DNA from: a virus | DNA: 44,197 nucleotides | Direction: 5' to 3' (one strand) | Virus genome (UHGV): UHGV-0105297 | Part shown: positions 13,699 through 31,123 of the stretch, one piece after another | How positions within the stretch are numbered: position 1 is the first letter of the stretch | How the letters are laid out: each line of letters begins with the position of its first letter | Notes under the pieces: model-generated | The model's input: only the letters and a program-made list of their open reading frames with translations | What the model was told of the DNA's origin: nothing | Databases searched by the model: none | Program-made: the position numbers and the translations under genes

Positions 13699-14604
13699 AT
13701 GACGACTATCCGCAAACTTTACGAGTCAAAGCAAATCACTGCGAAGCGCAACAACACTTTTCTGGTGGCTTTCCAGGATTTGTACATGGAGCCGGGTTAC
13801 AACATCCGTGACGGAGAGATTGACCAGGACAGTGTTGACGGCTTTTGTGCGTCGTTCATGGCAGGTGCCTACGTGCCAGCCATTGGCGTGGATATAACTG
13901 ACACCGGCCTGCGTGTGAACGATGGCCAACACCGCTACTTAGGTGCGCAGAAGGCTGTCAGCCAGGGAAAAACGGATCTGATGCTGGAAGTGTATGACGT
14001 TACTGAACTGCCGCCAGCACAACGCATAGGCCGTATGGTTAAAGCCAACGATGGCACGCCTACGTCACCCATTGCCCGTGCCAATGCCTACGCCCGCATG
14101 AAGGCTGAAGGCATGACGAATGACCAGATCGCCAAAGAGGTTCACCGCAGCGCGTCAGACGTTGCCAACTTCCTGGCGCTGGCGGCCTGCCCGGAACACC
14201 TGAAAGAAATGGTGAAGGCTGGCCAGATGTCCTACGTGATGGCCATCGACCTGGCCAAAGAGCATGGCGAGGATGCGCCAGCCGTGGCAGCAGAAGCGCT
14301 GGAAAAGGCCAAAGCCGCTGGCAAAGAGAAGGTGACGAAGAAATTCACCGCGCCTAAAGAGCCGAAGGAACCGAAGGCACCGGCGGAACCAGCAGCACCG
14401 GCCAAACCGAAGGCCAAACCGGTACAGGGTGAATTCACCAAAGACCAGCTGATTCAACTGGCTGACCTGGCCGTGCAGATTGAGCGCGTAGGCAATGACT
14501 GCCTTGACCACTACACCGGCGACCAGTTCACGATCCTGCGCACTTCGGTGCAGACATGGCGCGACCTGTCAGCGCTGATTGATGTCTATCTGGGGGCCAA
14601 ATGA
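13699..14604 (+). CDS. ParB/Srx-fold protein with DGQHR motif (DndB/DUF262-like N-terminal domain) plus HTH and Lys/Pro/Ala-rich linker
   Basis: 'RVNDGQHRYLGA' matches the DGQHR/DGQQR signature of DndB and DUF262 ParB-like NTPase/nuclease domains. A predicted HTH follows ('NDQIAKEVHRSASDVANFLALA'), then a KEPKEPKAPAEPAAPAKPKAKP low-complexity linker. Confidence 0.55.
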   Translation: MTTIRKLYESKQITAKRNNTFLVAFQDLYMEPGYNIRDGEIDQDSVDGFCASFMAGAYVPAIGVDITDTGLRVNDGQHRYLGAQKAVSQGKTDLMLEVYDVTELPPAQRIGRMVKANDGTPTSPIARANAYARMKAEGMTNDQIAKEVHRSASDVANFLALAACPEHLKEMVKAGQMSYVMAIDLAKEHGEDAPAVAAEALEKAKAAGKEKVTKKFTAPKEPKEPKAPAEPAAPAKPKAKPVQGEFTKDQLIQLADLAVQIERVGNDCLDHYTGDQFTILRTSVQTWRDLSALIDVYLGAK

Positions 14605-15550: not shown

Positions 15551-15627
15551 TGGCGACCCCGCCAGGAATCGAACCTGGAACCCCCAGCTTAGAAGGCTGG
15601 TGCTCTATCCGGTTGAGCTACGGGGCC
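15551..15627 (-). tRNA. tRNA-Arg (anticodon UCU), complete 77 nt including encoded CCA
   Basis: The reverse complement folds as: acceptor GGCCCCG/CGGGGUC, D arm GCUC-AACCGGAUA-GAGC, anticodon stem CCAGC/GCUGG with loop CUUCUAA (UCU), variable loop GGGUU, T arm CCAGG-UUCGAUU-CCUGG, discriminator G, CCA. Confidence 0.8.
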
Positions 15628-15931: not shown

Positions 15932-17143
15932 ATGCTGACAGAGCGCCAGATACAAGCGGCCATGCGCGCCGTGACCAGTGAAACCGTGCTTAACGATGGG
16001 GCCGAAGGGCGTGGCAGCGGCAGCCTGCGCCTGCGCATTCGTGCCGGGGCAAAAGGGCCAGCCGCTATCTGGCAGGCTATCTGGTACGGCGGCGGGAAAC
16101 GCGCCAGTAAGGCCATTGGCCGCTACCCGGATTTGAGCCTGGCAGACGCACGCCGGAAGTATGAAACCGAAGTGCGTGACGTGCTGGCGGCAGGACGTGA
16201 CCCAAACGCAGTGGTTGTGCAGGCCGAAGCGCCAACCGTTGAAAAGATGTTCCAGGCTTACATCCAGTCACTGAAGGACAAAGGCGCAGCCAGATGGGAT
16301 GAATCGGAACGCCTGCTACTGACTGGCAGGCACAACGCCGCCGATGACCTGGGGCGCAACACCGTGGCATCCACCGTGGAACCGGCAGCCATCGCAGACC
16401 TGCTGGCCAAAGGCATCAAGCGAGGCGCACGCCGCACCACCGACATGCAGCGCACAGCTATGGCCGCAGCCTTCAATTGGGCCATGAAGGCAACGCACGA
16501 CTACACGCAGGAACGGCGCATGGATTGGGGCATCAAATATAACCCTGTTGCAGCGGTTCCGCGTGACGCCGGGGCGAACAAGACGCGCGAACGGAACCTG
16601 TCAGCGGAGGAAATGAAGCACGTATGGGCCAGCGCGCCAGACCAGACCGGCGACGTTCTGCGCCTGGTGATGGCCACCGGCCAGCGCGTCATTGAAGTCA
16701 TGCGCGTGGAAGGCGCTGACGTGGATCTGAACGCCAGGCTGTGGACGATGCCAGCCGCAAAGACGAAGGGCCGCAAATCCATGCACCTGGTGCCGCTGCC
16801 TGAACAGGCGGTGGAGATATTCCAGCGGCTGATTGACCTGCACGGCGATGGCTACCTGTTCCCAGCACGCGAGGGCGCAAAGGGTGCCATCATCGGCATT
16901 CCGAGCGTTAGCCGGGCCGCCAGCCGCATGGATGGCATCAAGCGTTTTCAGCCACGCGACTTGCGCCGCACCTGGAAGTCACGCGCCGGTGACGCTGGCA
17001 TTGACCGGTTCACCCGCGACCTGATCCAACAGCACGCGCAGACCGACACCGGCAGCAAACATTATGACCGCTATGACTACCTGCCGCAGATGCGCGAGGC
17101 GATGAATAAGTGGGAAATATGGTTGCGAAATGCTATAGCGTGA
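15932..17143 (+). CDS. int: Tyrosine recombinase / phage integrase
   Basis: 403 aa. N-terminal arm-binding/SAM-like region and a C-terminal catalytic domain with 'R..L...GQR..E' and 'HDLRRTW...G...LI..LLGH'-type motifs ('RDLRRTWKSRAGDAGI'). Adjacent to the tRNA and arm repeats. Confidence 0.85.
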   Translation: MLTERQIQAAMRAVTSETVLNDGAEGRGSGSLRLRIRAGAKGPAAIWQAIWYGGGKRASKAIGRYPDLSLADARRKYETEVRDVLAAGRDPNAVVVQAEAPTVEKMFQAYIQSLKDKGAARWDESERLLLTGRHNAADDLGRNTVASTVEPAAIADLLAKGIKRGARRTTDMQRTAMAAAFNWAMKATHDYTQERRMDWGIKYNPVAAVPRDAGANKTRERNLSAEEMKHVWASAPDQTGDVLRLVMATGQRVIEVMRVEGADVDLNARLWTMPAAKTKGRKSMHLVPLPEQAVEIFQRLIDLHGDGYLFPAREGAKGAIIGIPSVSRAASRMDGIKRFQPRDLRRTWKSRAGDAGIDRFTRDLIQQHAQTDTGSKHYDRYDYLPQMREAMNKWEIWLRNAIA

Positions 17144-25731: not shown

Positions 25732-25929
25732 ATGCACGAAAGGACCGAACGACTAATCAATATTATGACGGAACACAATCTGTCTTGCCGTGATGTTGGT
25801 ACTATTCTTGACCGCACAGAACAGACTGTTTCGATCTGGCGTTGCAGCCACAAACCTGGCCAGCGCGTCATCCCCGGTTACCTGCTGGAACTGCTGGAGT
25901 TCAAACTGGCGCAGCAGGCACAGCAATGA
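25732..25929 (+). CDS. Small HTH regulatory protein (~65 aa)
   Basis: Internal Met of ORF 25687-25929. 'LSCRDVGTILDRTEQTVSIWR' is a helix-turn-helix. Confidence 0.35.
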   Translation: MHERTERLINIMTEHNLSCRDVGTILDRTEQTVSIWRCSHKPGQRVIPGYLLELLEFKLAQQAQQ

Positions 25930-26166: not shown

Positions 26167-28470
26167 ATGAGCGCACAACAATCATTCAAGGATCTGACCG
26201 AACAGGAAATAGCCGAAGCGCTATCCTACATCGATTCCAGTTGCGACCGTGAAACATGGGTGCGCATGGCGATGGCGGTCAAGTCTGAATTAGGCGACGG
26301 CGGTTTTCCCGTCTGGAATGACTGGTCACGTCAGTCGGATAAGTACAACAGCAAAGACGCCCGCGACACCTGGAAATCAGTAAAACGCCACGGTGGCATT
26401 GGTATTGGTACACTCATTGGTGAGGCGCAATTGTTCGGCTTCTCGCTGAACGATAACGAACGCACGCCACTGACAGCCGAAGAAATCACCGCGCGCAAAC
26501 AGCGCCGCGAAGCAGAAGAACAGGCAGAGAAGCAGCGCCGCGCAGAGAGCATGGCGCAGGCAGCAGAGCAGGCCAGCAACATTTGGGAAGCGTCAGCCGA
26601 ACTGGAAGGCGACGAACACCCGTACCTGAAGCGCAAGCAGGTTAAGGCGTTCGGTCTGCGTATTGGCCGGTTCCGCAACCAGGATGGCGCACTGCTGGTG
26701 CCTATCCGTAACATCGACGGGCAGATCACCAGCCTACAGGCCATATTTCATAACGAAAACCCGCTGATTGGGCGTGACCGTGACTACCTGCCAGGCGGCC
26801 AGAAGCGTGGATGCTTTCACGTCATTGGCAACAAGCCGACAGGTGCCAGCCCGGTCATTGTTATCTGCGAAGGGTATTCCACCGGTGCATCCATCCACAT
26901 GGCGACAGGCTATTGCGTCATTGTGGCGTTTGATGCCGGTAACGTGCCGACAGTTGGCAGGCTGATGCGCCAGCAGTTCGGACGCGCAACAATCATTGTG
27001 GCTGCTGATAACGACCAGTGGCACGACGAAGGCAAGCAGAATGATGGCGTTCACTACGCGCGCCAGGCGGCTACGCAATCAGGCGGCCTGCTGGTGGTGC
27101 CGAAGTTCGACAAACTGAGCGACCAGCCGACCGACTTCAACGACCTGCACGCATTGCAGGGTTTAAACGCTGTGCGTGACCAGATTAACGCCGTACTGCC
27201 TGAACCGGCGAATGATAACTGGCTGCCGCTGGATGCCACGGTGAACCCGTTCATGTATCCGCACATGAGCAACCAGCAGAAACCATTAAGCACCTGGGAA
27301 AACCTGGAATGGATGCTGGACCAGTACGGCATTAAGGCGCGCTATAACGAGATCAGCAAAAACGTGGTGGTCACCATCCCTGGCCGCGATTACGGCATGG
27401 ATTCCGCCGACAACTGCGCCCTGGCGGAGATTTCCAGCCTGTGCGCCCGCAACGGGATGCCGAAAGGTGACGCCGGGGATTACATCAAACTGATTGGCGT
27501 GGCCAACCGATACAACCCGGCGGCAGAATTCATCACGTCACGGCCCTGGGATGGCGTCAGCCGCATTTATGACCTGGTGGATACCCTGACCACACCGGAC
27601 GGTTTTGATCGCGGTCTGGTGCTGATGATAGTGCGCCGCTGGCTGATTTCTGCCGTAGCTGCGGCCATGAAGCCAACCGGTTTCTGGTCCAAAGGCGTGC
27701 TGGTGCTTCAGGGCGATCAGTCGCTGGGTAAAACGTCATGGTTCAAATCGCTGCTGCCGCCGACCATGCGCGACCTGATAAAAGACGGCGCGACCATCGA
27801 CCCGTCAAACAAAGACAGCGTGACCACGGCGATTGGCCACTGGATGGTTGAATTAGGCGAACTGGATGCAACATTCCGCAAGGCCGACATTGCCAGGCTG
27901 AAATCGTTCATCAGTTCTGACGTTGACATGCTGCGCCGCCCTTATGACCGGCTTGAATCGAAATACCAGCGCCGCACGGTTTTTTTTGCATCGGTCAACC
28001 CGAAACACTTCCTGGCCGATGACACCGGGAACGTGCGCTGGTGGACCATACCCGTCACTGACGTGAACTATGACCACGACATTGACACACAACAACTGTG
28101 GGCCGAAGTGGCGCAACTGTACCGCGACGGTGAACGCTGGTGGCTTGATCGCAATGAAGAAGCCATGCTGGAACAGGTCAACAAAGAACACGAAGCGATT
28201 GACCCGGTAGAGGAAATGATACTGATGCGCTACGAATGGGGTTGCGACAGACCAGCAGCCTACGCAGAGCGCACAGCCACGCAGGTGTTGCAGGAAATCG
28301 GCTATGACAAGCCGAACAAGTCACAGACAACCCATTGCGCTGGTGTACTGCGAAAACTCACTGGCAAGCCTGCCAGGAAGTCTGGCAGCAATCGGCTGTT
28401 TAGCCTGCCGCCGAAGGTTCCTAACCCTGACCACCGGCGATTCAATGACGATGATGACCGGCCATTTTGA
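26167..28470 (+). CDS. Bifunctional DNA primase (PriCT-like N-terminus + Toprim) fused to VirE/P4-alpha-type P-loop NTPase
   Basis: Toprim 'VVICEGYSTGASIHMATGYCVIVAFDAGN...DND'. Walker A 'GDQSLGKTS' in the C-terminal half. 767 aa. Confidence 0.75.
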   Translation: MSAQQSFKDLTEQEIAEALSYIDSSCDRETWVRMAMAVKSELGDGGFPVWNDWSRQSDKYNSKDARDTWKSVKRHGGIGIGTLIGEAQLFGFSLNDNERTPLTAEEITARKQRREAEEQAEKQRRAESMAQAAEQASNIWEASAELEGDEHPYLKRKQVKAFGLRIGRFRNQDGALLVPIRNIDGQITSLQAIFHNENPLIGRDRDYLPGGQKRGCFHVIGNKPTGASPVIVICEGYSTGASIHMATGYCVIVAFDAGNVPTVGRLMRQQFGRATIIVAADNDQWHDEGKQNDGVHYARQAATQSGGLLVVPKFDKLSDQPTDFNDLHALQGLNAVRDQINAVLPEPANDNWLPLDATVNPFMYPHMSNQQKPLSTWENLEWMLDQYGIKARYNEISKNVVVTIPGRDYGMDSADNCALAEISSLCARNGMPKGDAGDYIKLIGVANRYNPAAEFITSRPWDGVSRIYDLVDTLTTPDGFDRGLVLMIVRRWLISAVAAAMKPTGFWSKGVLVLQGDQSLGKTSWFKSLLPPTMRDLIKDGATIDPSNKDSVTTAIGHWMVELGELDATFRKADIARLKSFISSDVDMLRRPYDRLESKYQRRTVFFASVNPKHFLADDTGNVRWWTIPVTDVNYDHDIDTQQLWAEVAQLYRDGERWWLDRNEEAMLEQVNKEHEAIDPVEEMILMRYEWGCDRPAAYAERTATQVLQEIGYDKPNKSQTTHCAGVLRKLTGKPARKSGSNRLFSLPPKVPNPDHRRFNDDDDRPF

Positions 28471-28518
28471 TTGTTCATTCGCCCGCACCGGCGGGCATTT
28501 TTAATTAAAGGTGACATT

Positions 28519-28992
28519 ATGAAAATTGTTTTATCCGCGATCTACATCGCATCCATTTGCCTGGCTAACTTTTCCGTCCACCTGTTCGGGCCTGCAATCA
28601 CTCCGCTTAACGCTTTCCTGTTAATCGGGCTTGATTTCGTTATCCGTGACAAACTGCACGAACGCATTGGCATTGCCAGAATGCTGGTGCTTGTCGCCGT
28701 AGCTGGGGTAATCAGTTTTGCTATTAACCCGGCAACAGACATGATCGCAATAGCCAGCGTTTCGGCGTTCGCGCTTGCATCCGTGACTGACGCCACCGTT
28801 TACCAGGCGCTTATCCGTAAACCCTGGTTGGTGAAATCTAACGGCAGCAACCTGGCATCATCAGCCGTGGATTCCCTGGCGTTCCCGCTTATCGCGTTCG
28901 GCGCATTTCTCCCGCTGGTGGTCATTGGTCAGTTCGCTGCAAAGGTATTCGGCGGCGCGATTTGGGCATGGATGCTGCGGGGTGTTAAATGA
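28519..28992 (+). CDS. YhhQ/VUT-family queuosine-precursor (preQ0/preQ1) transporter homolog, short form (157 aa)
   Basis: Multi-TM protein. 'FLLIGLDFVIRD', 'LANFSVHL' and 'SNLASSAVDSLAFPLIAF' parallel E. coli YhhQ 'FIFLATDLTVRIFG', 'SSNYLVQL' and 'GNVSDTLAFFFIAF'. RBS AAAGGTGA. Confidence 0.6.
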   Translation: MKIVLSAIYIASICLANFSVHLFGPAITPLNAFLLIGLDFVIRDKLHERIGIARMLVLVAVAGVISFAINPATDMIAIASVSAFALASVTDATVYQALIRKPWLVKSNGSNLASSAVDSLAFPLIAFGAFLPLVVIGQFAAKVFGGAIWAWMLRGVK

Positions 28993-29759
28993 CCACACAT
29001 TACCACGGCGGCCCACTGTGGGGCGGTGACGAATTGCTGAAGGCGCTTTATCGCAACACTGGCGCGCTGGTTTCCTACGCACGGCCAGACCAGATAAAGA
29101 AAATCGCAGCCATCCGCTGCAAACTGGTTCTGGACAATGGCGCATTCTCCACCTGGCGGAAAGCGGCGAATGACAACGGGAAGGAATGGTGGCGCAAACA
29201 TTGGGAAGGATATTATGACTTTGTTGGCGAGTGGTTCAGCCGCATTGAATGGTTCATCATTCCTGACGTGATTGAAGGTAGCGAACAGGAGAATGACGAA
29301 CTGATTGGCCAGGTTCCTGAATGGCTGATGCCAAAGGCTGTGCCGGTCTGGCACAGTGATGAAAGTATAGAACGACTTGTGCGCCTTTGTGAGCGCTTCA
29401 GCCGCGTGGCAATAGGTTGTTGTGGTCCACATCGTTCGATCCGTTCAGCGGCCTGGAAATCACGCATGACTGAGGCATTCAGAGCCATATATGTGGAACG
29501 CAATATGACGGTGAAGATCCACGGTCTGAGAATGCTGGATGGCCGCGCATTAAGCCAGTTTCCGTTTGACAGCGCAGACAGCACCAACGTGGCAACAAAC
29601 GTTCCAAAGACGATGGCCAGGCTACCAAACATCACGGATAAACTGCACCGTACAGCTATCATGCGGCACACTATCGAGATGGTGATGCCGCCAACGGTGG
29701 AAGAATGGAAGGTGGCGCAGAACGACAACACGCCACTTTTACACTGGAATGCATCATAA
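28989..29759 (+). CDS. TGT-like (queuine tRNA-ribosyltransferase fold) DpdA-like protein, candidate 7-deazaguanine DNA transglycosylase
   Basis: 256 aa, translationally coupled (ATGA) to the YhhQ homolog. 'VLDNGAFS' resembles the TGT substrate-pocket 'DSGGFQ' motif. No TGT zinc site, as in DpdA. Assignment rests on size, motif and the YhhQ association. Confidence 0.45.
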   Translation: MTTHYHGGPLWGGDELLKALYRNTGALVSYARPDQIKKIAAIRCKLVLDNGAFSTWRKAANDNGKEWWRKHWEGYYDFVGEWFSRIEWFIIPDVIEGSEQENDELIGQVPEWLMPKAVPVWHSDESIERLVRLCERFSRVAIGCCGPHRSIRSAAWKSRMTEAFRAIYVERNMTVKIHGLRMLDGRALSQFPFDSADSTNVATNVPKTMARLPNITDKLHRTAIMRHTIEMVMPPTVEEWKVAQNDNTPLLHWNAS

Positions 29760-29780
29760 CCCGCTTCGGCGGGTTTTTTC
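29757..29780 (+). terminator. Rho-independent terminator (CCCGC-TTCG-GCGGG + T6)
   Basis: Hairpin plus T run immediately after the DpdA-like gene. Confidence 0.65.
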
Positions 29781-29877: not shown

Positions 29878-30126
29878 ATGGCAAAAGCACTGGCAAAAAA
29901 CAAAAAATACGTTCTGGCTACTTACACCGCTGACGTATACAAGGGTTACACATTTCTGTTTGACGCAAACGATGACCGTCTGGAAACCAGCCCGCTCGCC
30001 ATCATTGGTGAAGCCAATCCAGTTGGTAAACAGTTTTCAAAAGGCCGTCACGCCGTTCAGAACGTAGTTGATGCGAACGGTAAAGAACACACCGTTTTCC
30101 TGGGTGACCGTTCTGTTGCCGCATAA
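29878..30126 (+). CDS. Hypothetical protein (82 aa)
   Basis: RBS GAGGA. Clean ORF. No domain recognised. Confidence 0.4.
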   Translation: MAKALAKNKKYVLATYTADVYKGYTFLFDANDDRLETSPLAIIGEANPVGKQFSKGRHAVQNVVDANGKEHTVFLGDRSVAA

Positions 30127-30257: not shown

Positions 30258-30374
30258 ATGATTTTTGACTGGCTTAATTCATTACCGAAATGGCAAGCGC
30301 GCCGCGTTGCGCTGCTTTACTTCCCGGCGATCTGCTGGGCCACTGCTGCAATTATTGTTTGGGGTGCGATATGA
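30258..30374 (+). CDS. Small membrane protein (38 aa), translationally coupled to the next gene
   Basis: 'MIFDWLNSLPKWQARRVALLYFPAICWATAAIIVWGAI'. Stop overlaps ATG 30371. Confidence 0.3.
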   Translation: MIFDWLNSLPKWQARRVALLYFPAICWATAAIIVWGAI

Positions 30375-31123
30375 AAGAGGTGAATGTTGATAACGTGCAG
30401 GCGCGCATTGCACATTTGGAAACGTGCGCGCAGATCGGCTGGCGGCTTTCTATGGGCCATGAATTCGAAATGGAGTGTTTGCGGCAGTTGCTGGCCGCAA
30501 TGGAACAAAAGCCGTTCATGTATGGTATCGCAGACCCGGACGGAAACCCGCACATGGATGAAATGTGTGTCAGCCCAACCCGGTCATCCGTTGAAGATGC
30601 CGTGTCATGTTTAAACGAAGATAATACAGACGTTGGCGAGGCGCTTTATCAGGTTGTTCCGCTTTACCGTCACCCTGTGAATCCAGCACCGGAGAAATAC
30701 AACGTCGGTGAAGCCACCATGCTGCACATCTTCACTGCTACAGGCATGACCAACGTTTCTGACATGCAGGCTGTGTTTGACCGGGTTGAAGCGGTGCTGG
30801 TTAAGCTGGAACGGAAACCAAAGGTGATAGAGCCTGAAGGGTGGATGGACATGATGACCAGGCTGGCAAATGGTCTGGAGCTAATGACATCGTTGGCATC
30901 AGAAAGGGCAATCAGTGTTGACACGTGTGTTTGTCTGGAGTGGGTACGTGACGCACGCGCCATGATTAACCAGGCGCAGGAACCAGCCACAGACAACACC
31001 GCGCAGCAGTTTGAAAGCCTGGCTGAAAATACGGAACCGTGCGTGATTTGCGGCGTGGTATCGAGTCACCCGGAAGGCTGGCACTACTGCCACGCCACCA
31101 GCGCGGGGAGCGGCAATAAATGA
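30371..31123 (+). CDS. Hypothetical protein (250 aa; the ORF track extends to 30290 but likely starts at MKEVN)
   Basis: ATG overlapping the upstream stop. C-terminal Cys/His cluster 'CVICGVVSSHPEGWHYCH'. Confidence 0.4.
   Translation: MKEVNVDNVQARIAHLETCAQIGWRLSMGHEFEMECLRQLLAAMEQKPFMYGIADPDGNPHMDEMCVSPTRSSVEDAVSCLNEDNTDVGEALYQVVPLYRHPVNPAPEKYNVGEATMLHIFTATGMTNVSDMQAVFDRVEAVLVKLERKPKVIEPEGWMDMMTRLANGLELMTSLASERAISVDTCVCLEWVRDARAMINQAQEPATDNTAQQFESLAENTEPCVICGVVSSHPEGWHYCHATSAGSGNK

What the first reader, a model, noticed from the sequence alone, without database searches (positions are those of the whole stretch)
28519..29780. Translationally coupled YhhQ (preQ0/preQ1 transporter) homolog plus TGT-fold DpdA-like gene in the replication module: candidate 7-deazaguanine genome-modification system relying on salvage
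ORF 28519-28992 shares several conserved segments with E. coli YhhQ, the VUT-family importer of queuosine precursors. Its stop overlaps the start of a 256-aa protein whose 'VLDNGAFS' region resembles the substrate pocket of tRNA-guanine transglycosylases but which lacks the TGT zinc site, as DpdA proteins do. DpdA homologs in phages insert preQ0-derived 7-deazaguanines into DNA as anti-restriction modifications. A phage encoding only the transporter and the transglycosylase would be predicted to import host or environmental preQ0/preQ1 and swap it into its own DNA. The pair sits directly after the primase and ends with a strong terminator, which supports a dedicated unit.
Basis: partly seen in the sequence, partly recalled or inferred. 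Interest (0 to 1): 0.8.

Follow-up and report, generated by a model that had tools for sequence, protein, structure and literature searches.

The report
Phage preQ0-importer plus DNA-transglycosylase cassette
A Jilinvirus-like phage has picked up a two-gene cassette, a small YhhQ-type membrane transporter and a DpdA-type enzyme that swaps guanine in DNA for a 7-deazaguanine base. This kind of phage (DpdA present, no precursor-synthesis genes) was already described in 2019, so it is a new member of a known kind.

Summary
ORF 28519-28992 (157 aa) is a short VUT/YhhQ (QPTR) family membrane protein. It passes the Pfam PF02592 threshold and its model has six helices. Its stop overlaps (ATGA) the start of ORF 28989-29759 (256 aa).

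The 256-aa protein belongs to the phage DpdA family:
- phrog_887, E 1.6e-79.
- hhalign to the genetically validated CAjan DpdA, 94% probability.
- D49/F53/H122/D197 are invariant.

No FolE, QueD, QueE or QueC gene was found anywhere in the 44-kb window.

The pair is a precise 1.26-kb insertion between the primase stop codon and the terminator that directly follows primase in relatives (ECO1230-10, KA2-1).

Hutinet et al. 2019 defined a group of 76 "DpdA-only" phages, noted YhhQ homologues in some, and proposed use of host or imported preQ0. The closest tested relative is phage 7-11 (62% identical), and only 0.02% of its G is modified. PEAT2 has the same VUT-DpdA pair downstream of its own primase gene.

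One claim needs correction: bacterial DpdA does keep the zinc site, and only the phage forms lack it. Activity, substrate and transport remain untested.

The parts
26167..28470 (+). Primase/helicase gene (767 aa). It is the upstream neighbour and the probable source of transcription into the cassette.
   Evidence: Pfam PriCT_2, Toprim_3 and VapE-like domains; phrog_2249 DNA primase, E 2e-220. It is 81-90% identical in DNA to the primases of ECO1230-10 and KA2-1.
28481..28496 (+). Terminator-like hairpin GCCCGC-ACCG-GCGGGC followed by ATTTTTAATT. It marks the left edge of the inserted cassette.
   Evidence: Found by the terminator scan. Folds at -13.1 kcal/mol, z -3.7. It is absent from relatives, where the ancestral terminator follows the primase stop directly. 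The related cassette copy in L008 is also preceded by a hairpin.
28508..28513 (+). Shine-Dalgarno-like AAGGTG, 5 nt upstream of the VUT start codon.
   Evidence: Read directly from the sequence.
28519..28992 (+). Short VUT/QPTR (YhhQ-family) membrane protein, 157 aa. Predicted importer of a 7-deazaguanine base (preQ0/preQ1).
   Evidence: Pfam PF02592 E 6.9e-10, above the gathering score. phrog_4899 E 6.7e-40, the same PHROG as CAjan gp41 'putative preQ0 transporter'. 28% identical to CAjan gp41. 38% identical to E. coli YhhQ over 52 residues. The AF2 model has six helices, pLDDT 83. Homologues are consistently 154-157 aa.
28989..29759 (+). Minimal, zinc-less phage DpdA-family guanine transglycosylase, 256 aa, translationally coupled to the VUT gene (ATGA overlap).
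29758..29775 (+). Intrinsic terminator AACCCGC-TTCG-GCGGGTT plus a T-run. This is the ancestral terminator of the primase operon and now forms the right edge of the cassette.
   Evidence: -11.8 kcal/mol. The same sequence follows the primase stop directly in ECO1230-10 and KA2-1.

Best explanation
Window 28496-29755 is a horizontally acquired two-gene cassette in a Jilinvirus-like myovirus. It is inserted between the primase stop codon and the primase terminator.

The second gene encodes a compact, zinc-less member of the phage DpdA family. I infer that it flips out specific guanines in double-stranded DNA and exchanges them for a 7-deazaguanine base, most likely preQ0. The mechanism would be the two-aspartate double displacement known from TGT and DpdA. 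D197 is the candidate nucleophile, D49 the general acid/base, F53 stacks on the base, and D93 and H122 read the base edge.

The phage has no FolE, QueD, QueE or QueC, so the base must come from the host queuosine pathway or from outside the cell.

The first gene is translationally coupled to the second. It encodes a six-helix YhhQ/QPTR-type membrane protein that I infer raises the intracellular base pool by importing preQ0, preQ1 or a related base during infection.

The expected outcome is partial, motif-specific replacement of G in phage DNA that blunts restriction and possibly Cas nucleases.

What is shown: gene structure, family membership, fold, conserved catalytic candidates, the insertion boundaries, and the absence of synthesis genes. 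What is inferred: DNA as the substrate, which base is inserted, the direction and substrate of transport, and the level and protective value of the modification.
For: - Family and fold of the DpdA-like protein.
- Invariant D49/F53/D93/H122/D197 at the C-terminal ends of predicted beta-strands. Their spacing mirrors D95/F99/D130/H181/D256 of S. Montevideo DpdA (PMC10164549).
- VUT family membership.
- No preQ0 genes in the window. PHROG or Pfam scans covered every ORF of 100 aa or more that I called, and tblastn with the CAjan FolE, QueD, QueC and QueE proteins covered the whole window.
- Precise insertion relative to ECO1230-10 and KA2-1.
- The pair recurs as an adjacent unit in unrelated phages: PEAT2, Tbat1_6, ECO111 5-P, LHE71, Phleasolo, Opt-79, Lg3, Phc, AB3P2 and Pam5. 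It also occurs in 21 of 80 IMG/VR loci, none of which has CAjan-like preQ0 genes within 10 kb.
- Fusions tie the subfamily to DNA modification and to the preQ0 pathway. A 69%-identical homologue in an Erwinia rhapontici chromosome is fused to a Dam methyltransferase and followed by a C5 methylase gene. Other homologues are fused to a D12 methyltransferase or to QueD.
- Literature: 9g DpdA alone inserts host preQ0 into plasmid DNA in E. coli, and DpdA-only phages were proposed to use host or imported precursors (PMC6884629). E. coli YhhQ/QPTR imports preQ0 and preQ1 (PMC11130926).
Against: - No activity has been shown for this subfamily. The nearest tested relative, phage 7-11 (62% identity), has only 50 dADG per 10^6 nt and no dPreQ0. 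Mycobacteriophage Orion, also DpdA-only, has no modification (PMC6884629).
- Deleting the CAjan YhhQ homologue changed nothing (PMC7544227).
- The VUT protein is 64 residues shorter than E. coli YhhQ, and it falls below both NCBIfam equivalog cut-offs.
- There is no Pfam, NCBIfam or PADLOC hit for the 256-aa protein, and no sequence-level link to E. coli Tgt.
- Bacterial DpdA needs a DpdB ATPase, and no cassette-specific partner is present here.
- A terminator-like hairpin upstream, with no recognisable promoter, may keep expression low.
Confidence: 0.6

Rival explanations
1. The enzyme is a DpdA homologue but inserts only trace amounts of deazaguanine, or modifies a handful of specific sites. 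Its role would then be something other than bulk anti-restriction, for example marking particular sites, evading one specific defence, or acting on host DNA during lysogeny or early infection. The VUT protein would merely fine-tune supply.
For: Phage 7-11 (62% identical DpdA) has 0.02% of G modified (PMC6884629). Many homologues sit in accessory regions of temperate lambdoid or P22-like prophages next to integrase or ea genes. A terminator-like hairpin upstream and the lack of a promoter suggest modest expression. Bacterial DpdA also modifies less than 0.1% of G (PMC10516641).
Against: Fusions to Dam, D12 and C5 methyltransferase contexts look like classic anti-restriction modification modules. 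The backbone lost the methyltransferase that relatives carry, which is consistent with one protective modification replacing another. DpdA1 levels range up to 30% of G (PMC10516641).
Confidence: 0.22
2. The pair handles a different base than preQ0, such as queuine or preQ1 scavenged from the gut, or another purine analogue. The chemistry of the modification would then differ from known DpdA-only predictions.
For: QPTR substrate specificity varies: E. coli takes preQ0 and preQ1, while C. trachomatis takes queuine (PMC11130926). VH7D DpdA2 prefers preQ1 (PMC10516641). The short VUT form is only 28-38% identical to characterised members. The phage comes from metagenome assemblies.
Against: All DpdA1-type enzymes tested so far insert preQ0 (PMC10516641). 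No sequence feature found here points to another substrate.
Confidence: 0.1
3. The TGT-fold protein does not act on DNA. It might act on tRNA or on a protein, as Cap10 does in type IV CBASS, or it might drain or perturb the host 7-deazaguanine pool as a counter-defence or host-takeover function.
Against: There is no Cap9/QueC-like or CD-NTase partner in the window. Homology runs through phage DpdA1, whose deletion abolishes DNA modification (PMC7544227). Fusions are to DNA methyltransferases. The protein lacks the tRNA-binding C-terminal domains of TGT and arcTGT (256 aa against 375-580 aa).
Confidence: 0.05

Closest known systems
Pectobacterium phage PEAT2 VUT-family protein plus 'queuine tRNA-ribosyltransferase' pair (MG432137 / NC_044940)
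   Same: The two-gene order and coupling are the same, and the pair also lies directly downstream of a primase gene. Identities are 74% (VUT) and 65% (DpdA). The cassette aligns at the DNA level at 66%. RefSeq already names both genes.
   Different: The backbone is a different phage. Its primase is not detectably similar to the window's by tblastn. Only 3 nt separate primase and VUT there, with no intervening hairpin. It has not been characterised experimentally.
Salmonella phage 7-11 DpdA (gp032), type example of the 'DpdA-only' phage group of Hutinet et al. 2019
   Same: 62% identical, same PHROG, and no preQ0 synthesis genes in the phage (PMC6884629). It is the nearest relative whose DNA was analysed.
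   Different: 7-11 has no adjacent VUT gene. It is a 90-kb virulent phage. Its measured modification is only 50 dADG per 10^6 nt.
Escherichia phage CAjan DpdA1 (gp35) and putative preQ0 transporter (gp41)
   Same: Both window proteins fall in the same PHROGs as the CAjan pair. hhalign to CAjan DpdA gives 94% probability. The CAjan transporter is also a short form, 159 aa. Neither DpdA has a zinc motif. CAjan dpdA is genetically required for dPreQ0 in DNA (PMC7544227).
   Different: CAjan carries folE, queD, queE and queC in a 12-gene cluster and replaces about 32% of G. Its two genes are not adjacent. Identity to the window proteins is only 20% (DpdA) and 28% (VUT).
Salmonella Montevideo DpdA of the Dpd restriction-modification system (PDB 7UI4)
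   Different: It is 413 aa with four insertions and a conserved CxCx2Cx22H zinc site. It needs the ParB-fold ATPase DpdB and works with DpdC and DpdD-K. The window protein is 256 aa, has no zinc site, does not hit the PADLOC DpdA model, and has no such partners.
E. coli YhhQ / QPTR (PF02592, COG1738), importer of preQ0 and preQ1
   Same: It belongs to the same Pfam family, is 38% identical across the most conserved segment, and is a polytopic membrane protein.
   Different: It is 221 aa against 157 aa. The phage form lacks a loop of about 20 residues and the C-terminal part, and it is below the NCBIfam equivalog cut-offs. Transport by the short form has never been shown.

Membership tests
VUT / QPTR (YhhQ) transporter family, PF02592 / COG1738 | Match to the Pfam Vut_1 model above its gathering score | tested here: met
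   39.9 bits against 27.2, E 6.9e-10. The match covers only profile positions 64-144 of 152. All 120 listed homologues carry PF02592.
VUT / QPTR (YhhQ) transporter family, PF02592 / COG1738 | Equivalog-level match to the queuosine precursor transporter models (TIGR00697, PRK11212) | tested here: not met
   25.3 bits against a cut-off of 50.95, and 19.5 bits against 252.
VUT / QPTR (YhhQ) transporter family, PF02592 / COG1738 | Polytopic membrane protein with about six transmembrane helices | tested here: met
   The AF2 model has six helices (2-23, 25-50, 52-69, 74-97, 103-127, 132-152), pLDDT 83. The hydropathy profile agrees. At 157 aa the protein is much shorter than E. coli YhhQ at 221 aa.
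VUT / QPTR (YhhQ) transporter family, PF02592 / COG1738 | Imports preQ0/preQ1 (or queuine) | not testable with these tools
   This needs complementation of an E. coli queD yhhQ mutant. The only phage homologue tested genetically (CAjan gp41) was dispensable for modification (PMC7544227).
Phage DpdA (DpdA1-like DNA guanine transglycosylase) | Homology to a DpdA with demonstrated function | tested here: met
   Same PHROG (phrog_887) as CAjan DpdA: 1.6e-79 against 8.2e-96. hhalign gives probability 94%, E 1e-7, over 161 columns. BLASTP E 2e-4.
Phage DpdA (DpdA1-like DNA guanine transglycosylase) | TGT-type (beta/alpha)8 barrel fold | tested here: met
Phage DpdA (DpdA1-like DNA guanine transglycosylase) | Conserved catalytic aspartates and base-stacking or base-reading residues (bDpdA D95, F99, D130, H181, D256) | tested here: met
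   D49, F53, D93, H122 and D197 are invariant in 39 homologues and lie at strand ends. D49/F53, H122 and D197 align with CAjan DSGAF, CFH and CDSS. The register of D93 against the CAjan 'VLDG' is uncertain.
Phage DpdA (DpdA1-like DNA guanine transglycosylase) | Inserts a 7-deazaguanine into DNA | not testable with these tools
   This needs LC-MS/MS of DNA. Indirect support comes from fusions to Dam-type and D12-type DNA methyltransferases and to QueD.
Bacterial DpdA of the Dpd restriction-modification system | Structural zinc site CxCx2Cx22H and the large insertion Ins8 | tested here: not met
   No CxCxxC motif, only four non-conserved Cys, and 256 aa against 413 aa (PMC10164549).
Bacterial DpdA of the Dpd restriction-modification system | Match to the DpdA profile, and presence of DpdB, DpdC and DpdD-K partners | tested here: not met
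   No PADLOC hit at E up to 1. No dpd partners were found among the window ORFs. The ParB-like gene at 13699-14604 is a backbone gene shared with relatives that lack the cassette.
Canonical tRNA-guanine transglycosylase (PF01702) | Sequence-profile match to TGT, the zinc site, and tRNA-binding extensions | tested here: not met
   No Pfam or NCBIfam hit. hhalign against E. coli Tgt gives probability 0.4%. No PDB sequence hit, even with a profile. E. coli Tgt has CxCxxC at residue 302 and the window protein has none.

The most novel reading that the evidence does not exclude
The VUT-DpdA pair could be a self-sufficient, mobile, salvage-type DNA hypermodification module. It would give an otherwise restriction-sensitive small myovirus substantial protection (percent-level replacement of G), and the strength of that protection would depend on deazapurine bases available in the environment, such as preQ0, preQ1 or perhaps queuine in the gut. 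In this lineage the module would have functionally replaced the DNA methyltransferase carried by sister phages.
Probability: 0.2. Interest if true: 0.55.

Novelty: new member of a known kind. Interest (0 to 1): 0.3.

Why it matters
7-Deazaguanine DNA modification protects phages from restriction enzymes and Cas9, and it also makes them targets of modification-dependent nucleases such as GrwAB. The 'DpdA-only' group is the largest and least understood class, and its best-studied member is almost unmodified.

This phage offers a clean natural comparison. Its backbone is close to Klebsiella phage KA2-1 and to Jilinvirus HeidiAbel. HeidiAbel lacks the cassette and is reported as very sensitive to restriction. 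The window phage has gained exactly the two-gene cassette and lacks the methyltransferase those relatives carry.

That makes it a convenient system for three questions: whether a transporter plus a transglycosylase are enough for protective modification, where the base comes from, and whether the short phage YhhQ form transports anything.

There is also an annotation gap. The subfamily is large (about 1,900 clusters at 50% identity), yet no Pfam or NCBIfam model covers it, and PGAP calls the E. coli prophage copies 'hypothetical protein'.

Tried and rejected
- Sequence and profile searches of the 256-aa protein against PDB chains gave only chance hits.
- hhalign of the family profile against E. 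coli Tgt found nothing.
- The PADLOC DpdA model did not hit the window protein.
- The afdb50 fold library was unavailable, so the VUT model could not be compared with predicted YhhQ structures. No YhhQ-family structure is in the PDB.
- I considered that the ParB-like protein at 13699-14604 might be a DpdB-like helper. I rejected it as cassette-specific because all Jilinvirus relatives without DpdA carry it.
- I considered the longer TTG start at 28471 for the VUT gene and rejected it.
- The upstream hairpin sequence was searched in all fetched loci and occurs only in the same phage.
- The cassette has no near-full-length DNA match in 5,426 complete E. coli genomes. Only one close copy was found in the species-representative genome set, in Erwinia rhapontici. 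The host therefore could not be pinned down.
- P0255, a DpdA-like segment joined to a baseplate hub domain, was treated as a probable gene-calling or assembly chimera.
- The 2024 MMBR review on 7-deazaguanines was not available to read.

Full report
**Observation**

The first runs from ATG 28519 to TGA 28990-92 and encodes 157 aa. AAGGTG lies 5 nt upstream of its start. The mechanical ORF list offers a longer TTG start at 28471. However, more than 100 homologues are 154-157 aa, and the gene call for the same phage in a metagenome contig is 157 aa. The second ORF starts at ATG 28989, overlaps the first stop as ATGA, and ends at TAA 29757-59 (256 aa). A seven-pair GC-rich hairpin with a T-run follows at 29758-29775.

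**Identity of the first gene**

- It passes the Pfam gathering score for Vut_1 (PF02592), the YhhQ/QPTR family, at 39.9 bits against 27.2. Only the C-terminal two thirds of the profile is matched.
- It is below the two NCBIfam equivalog cut-offs.
- BLASTP to E. coli YhhQ gives 38% identity over residues 76-127, E 1e-6.
- A profile alignment extends this to residues 5-127 against 16-163. It shows that the phage form lacks a loop of about 20 residues and the C-terminal part of the 221-aa protein.
- It shares phrog_4899 and 28% identity with CAjan gp41, the 159-aa 'putative preQ0 transporter'.
- An AlphaFold model (pLDDT 83) has six helices.
- No structure of this family has been solved.

**Identity of the second gene**

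There is no Pfam, NCBIfam, PADLOC or PDB-sequence hit, and no profile similarity to E. coli Tgt. The link to DpdA rests on four lines of evidence.

1. phrog_887 'queuine tRNA-ribosyltransferase' at E 1.6e-79. This is the PHROG that also holds CAjan DpdA, whose deletion abolishes dPreQ0 in DNA (PMC7544227).
2. hhalign of a 39-sequence family alignment against CAjan DpdA gives probability 94% and E 1e-7. It aligns LDNGAFS with LDSGAFS, PVWH with PCFH, and DSADS with SCDSS.
4. D49, F53, D93, H122 and D197 are invariant across the family and sit at the ends of predicted strands. This reproduces the D95/F99/D130/H181/D256 pattern that Gedara et al. showed to be catalytic in DpdA (PMC10164549).

The protein has no zinc motif. 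Bacterial DpdA retains a conserved CxCx2Cx22H site (PMC10164549). The phage DpdA1 of CAjan lacks one.

**Context**

The window is a Jilinvirus-like (Iiscvirinae) myovirus genome with integrase, ParB-like, recombination, helicase, primase, late activator, lysis, terminase, capsid and tail genes. Its closest isolate is Klebsiella phage KA2-1.

Aligning the region with ECO1230-10 and KA2-1 shows a precise insertion. Homology runs through the primase gene to 28495 and resumes at 29756. In the relatives the primase stop is followed directly by the AACCCGCTTCGGCGGGTTTT terminator, which in the window follows the DpdA stop.

The inserted piece begins with its own terminator-like hairpin (28481-28496, -13.1 kcal/mol). 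No sigma-70-like promoter was found between primase and the VUT gene. Expression therefore probably depends on read-through from the replication operon.

A related copy of the cassette in an unrelated viral contig (L008) is also flanked by hairpins, and homology between the two copies is confined to the two coding regions.

**Is the pair a unit, and is it synthesis-free?**

PHROG or Pfam scans of every ORF of 100 aa or more that I called, plus tblastn with the CAjan FolE, QueD, QueC and QueE proteins, found no preQ0 synthesis gene in the window.

In the phage collection, 106 records carry a homologue of the DpdA-like protein and 26 carry a homologue of the short VUT protein. At least ten carry both side by side. 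PEAT2 is one of them, and there the pair also follows a primase gene, although an unrelated one.

Among 80 IMG/VR loci with this DpdA subfamily:
- 21 have the VUT gene adjacent, 20 of them immediately upstream and often overlapping.
- 59 have DpdA alone.
- None has CAjan-like synthesis genes within 10 kb.

DpdA is therefore the core, and the transporter is a frequent but optional partner.

**Independent support for DNA modification**

A 69%-identical, full-length homologue in an Erwinia rhapontici chromosome is fused in one ORF to a Dam-type adenine methyltransferase and is followed by a C5 cytosine methylase gene. Metagenomic representatives are fused to a D12 adenine methyltransferase or to QueD.

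The window phage also lacks the DNA methyltransferase that KA2-1, ECO1230-10 and ep3 encode just upstream of primase. The cassette-free Jilinvirus HeidiAbel is reported as very sensitive to restriction systems (bioRxiv 10.1101/2024.09.12.612763).

**Mechanism**

I consider it most likely (about 0.6) that the enzyme exchanges guanine in phage DNA for preQ0 or a close derivative by the TGT/DpdA double-displacement mechanism. The base would come from the host queuosine pathway and from import through the VUT protein.

'Relying on salvage' is not required. Hosts of DpdA-only phages generally have the full pathway, and 9g DpdA alone inserts host preQ0 in E. coli at 0.03-0.3% of G (PMC6884629).

Three published results are cautionary:
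- Phage 7-11 (62% identical DpdA, no VUT) has only 50 dADG per 10^6 nt.
- Orion, also DpdA-only, has no modification.
- CAjan lacking its YhhQ homologue is modified normally (PMC6884629, PMC7544227).

QPTR substrates also differ between species (PMC11130926).

The rivals are:
- low-level or site-specific marking with a role other than bulk protection (0.22);
- a different base (0.10);
- a non-DNA target such as the protein substrate of Cap10 (0.05).

**Comparison with what is known, and novelty**

Hutinet et al. 2019 already defined the class: 76 phages with DpdA but no synthesis genes. They noted YhhQ homologues in some phages and proposed use of host-made or imported precursors. RefSeq already annotates the PEAT2 pair as 'VUT family protein' and 'queuine tRNA-ribosyltransferase'. 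This finding is therefore a new member of a known kind.

What this analysis adds:
- the exact insertion boundaries in a Jilinvirus backbone;
- the recurring adjacency of a short VUT form with this zinc-less DpdA subfamily;
- the methyltransferase and QueD fusions;
- the absence, in this phage, of the methyltransferase carried by sister phages;
- the lack of any curated model for a subfamily of about 1,900 clusters at 50% identity.

Interest is 0.3. The annotation is correct and biologically meaningful and gives a convenient test system, but it would not surprise a specialist.

Noticed in passing
window 25844-25927 (compare L005 3232-3930 and L004 2232-2930): Sister phages KA2-1, ECO1230-10 and ep3 carry a DNA methyltransferase gene of about 700 bp (phrog_757) two genes upstream of primase. 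The window has only about 80 bp there and no homologue anywhere (tblastn). The phage that gained the VUT-DpdA cassette therefore lacks the methyltransferase.
   Followed up: partly
window 28481-28496: A terminator-like hairpin (six GC pairs, -13.1 kcal/mol, then ATTTTT) lies between the primase stop and the VUT start, with no promoter-like site after it. It may attenuate expression of the cassette, or it may be a relic of the donor locus. A related cassette copy (L008) is also preceded by a hairpin.
   Followed up: partly
L089 6001-7719 and 7712-9679 (Erwinia rhapontici 1SR chromosome): A full-length DpdA-like domain (69% identical to the window protein) is fused in one 572-aa ORF to a Dam-type N6-adenine DNA methyltransferase. 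A C5 cytosine methylase gene follows it. Together they look like a multi-modification module.
   Followed up: partly
proteins P0245 and P0310 (metagenome representatives of the family): P0245 joins a D12-class adenine methyltransferase to a DpdA-like domain. P0310 joins QueD (6-pyruvoyl-tetrahydropterin synthase family) to a DpdA-like domain. Both fused DpdA parts start at the DNGAF strand and so lack the first beta-alpha unit.
   Followed up: no
window 13699-14604: A ParB-like protein carries an NDGQHR motif that resembles the DGQQR NTPase motif of DpdB and SspE. It is a backbone gene of all Jilinvirus relatives (96% identical in KA2-1), so it is not cassette-specific. Whether it could assist a DpdA was not examined.
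   Followed up: partly
window 15551-15627 (- strand) and 15932-17143: A tRNA-Arg(TCT) gene lies about 300 bp from the integrase gene. The window also has recombination genes, which is consistent with the facultatively temperate lifestyle discussed for Jilinvirus.
   Followed up: no
window 30290-31123 and 29878-30126: A 277-aa ORF and an 82-aa ORF just downstream of the cassette have no PHROG or Pfam hit. The 277-aa ORF is only patchily similar to the corresponding genes of relatives, so this is a variable region.
   Followed up: no
family-wide: This zinc-less DpdA subfamily has about 1,900 clusters at 50% identity, yet no Pfam or NCBIfam model covers it. PGAP labels the E. coli prophage copies (79 of 5,426 complete genomes have a partial DNA match) as 'hypothetical protein'.
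   Followed up: partly
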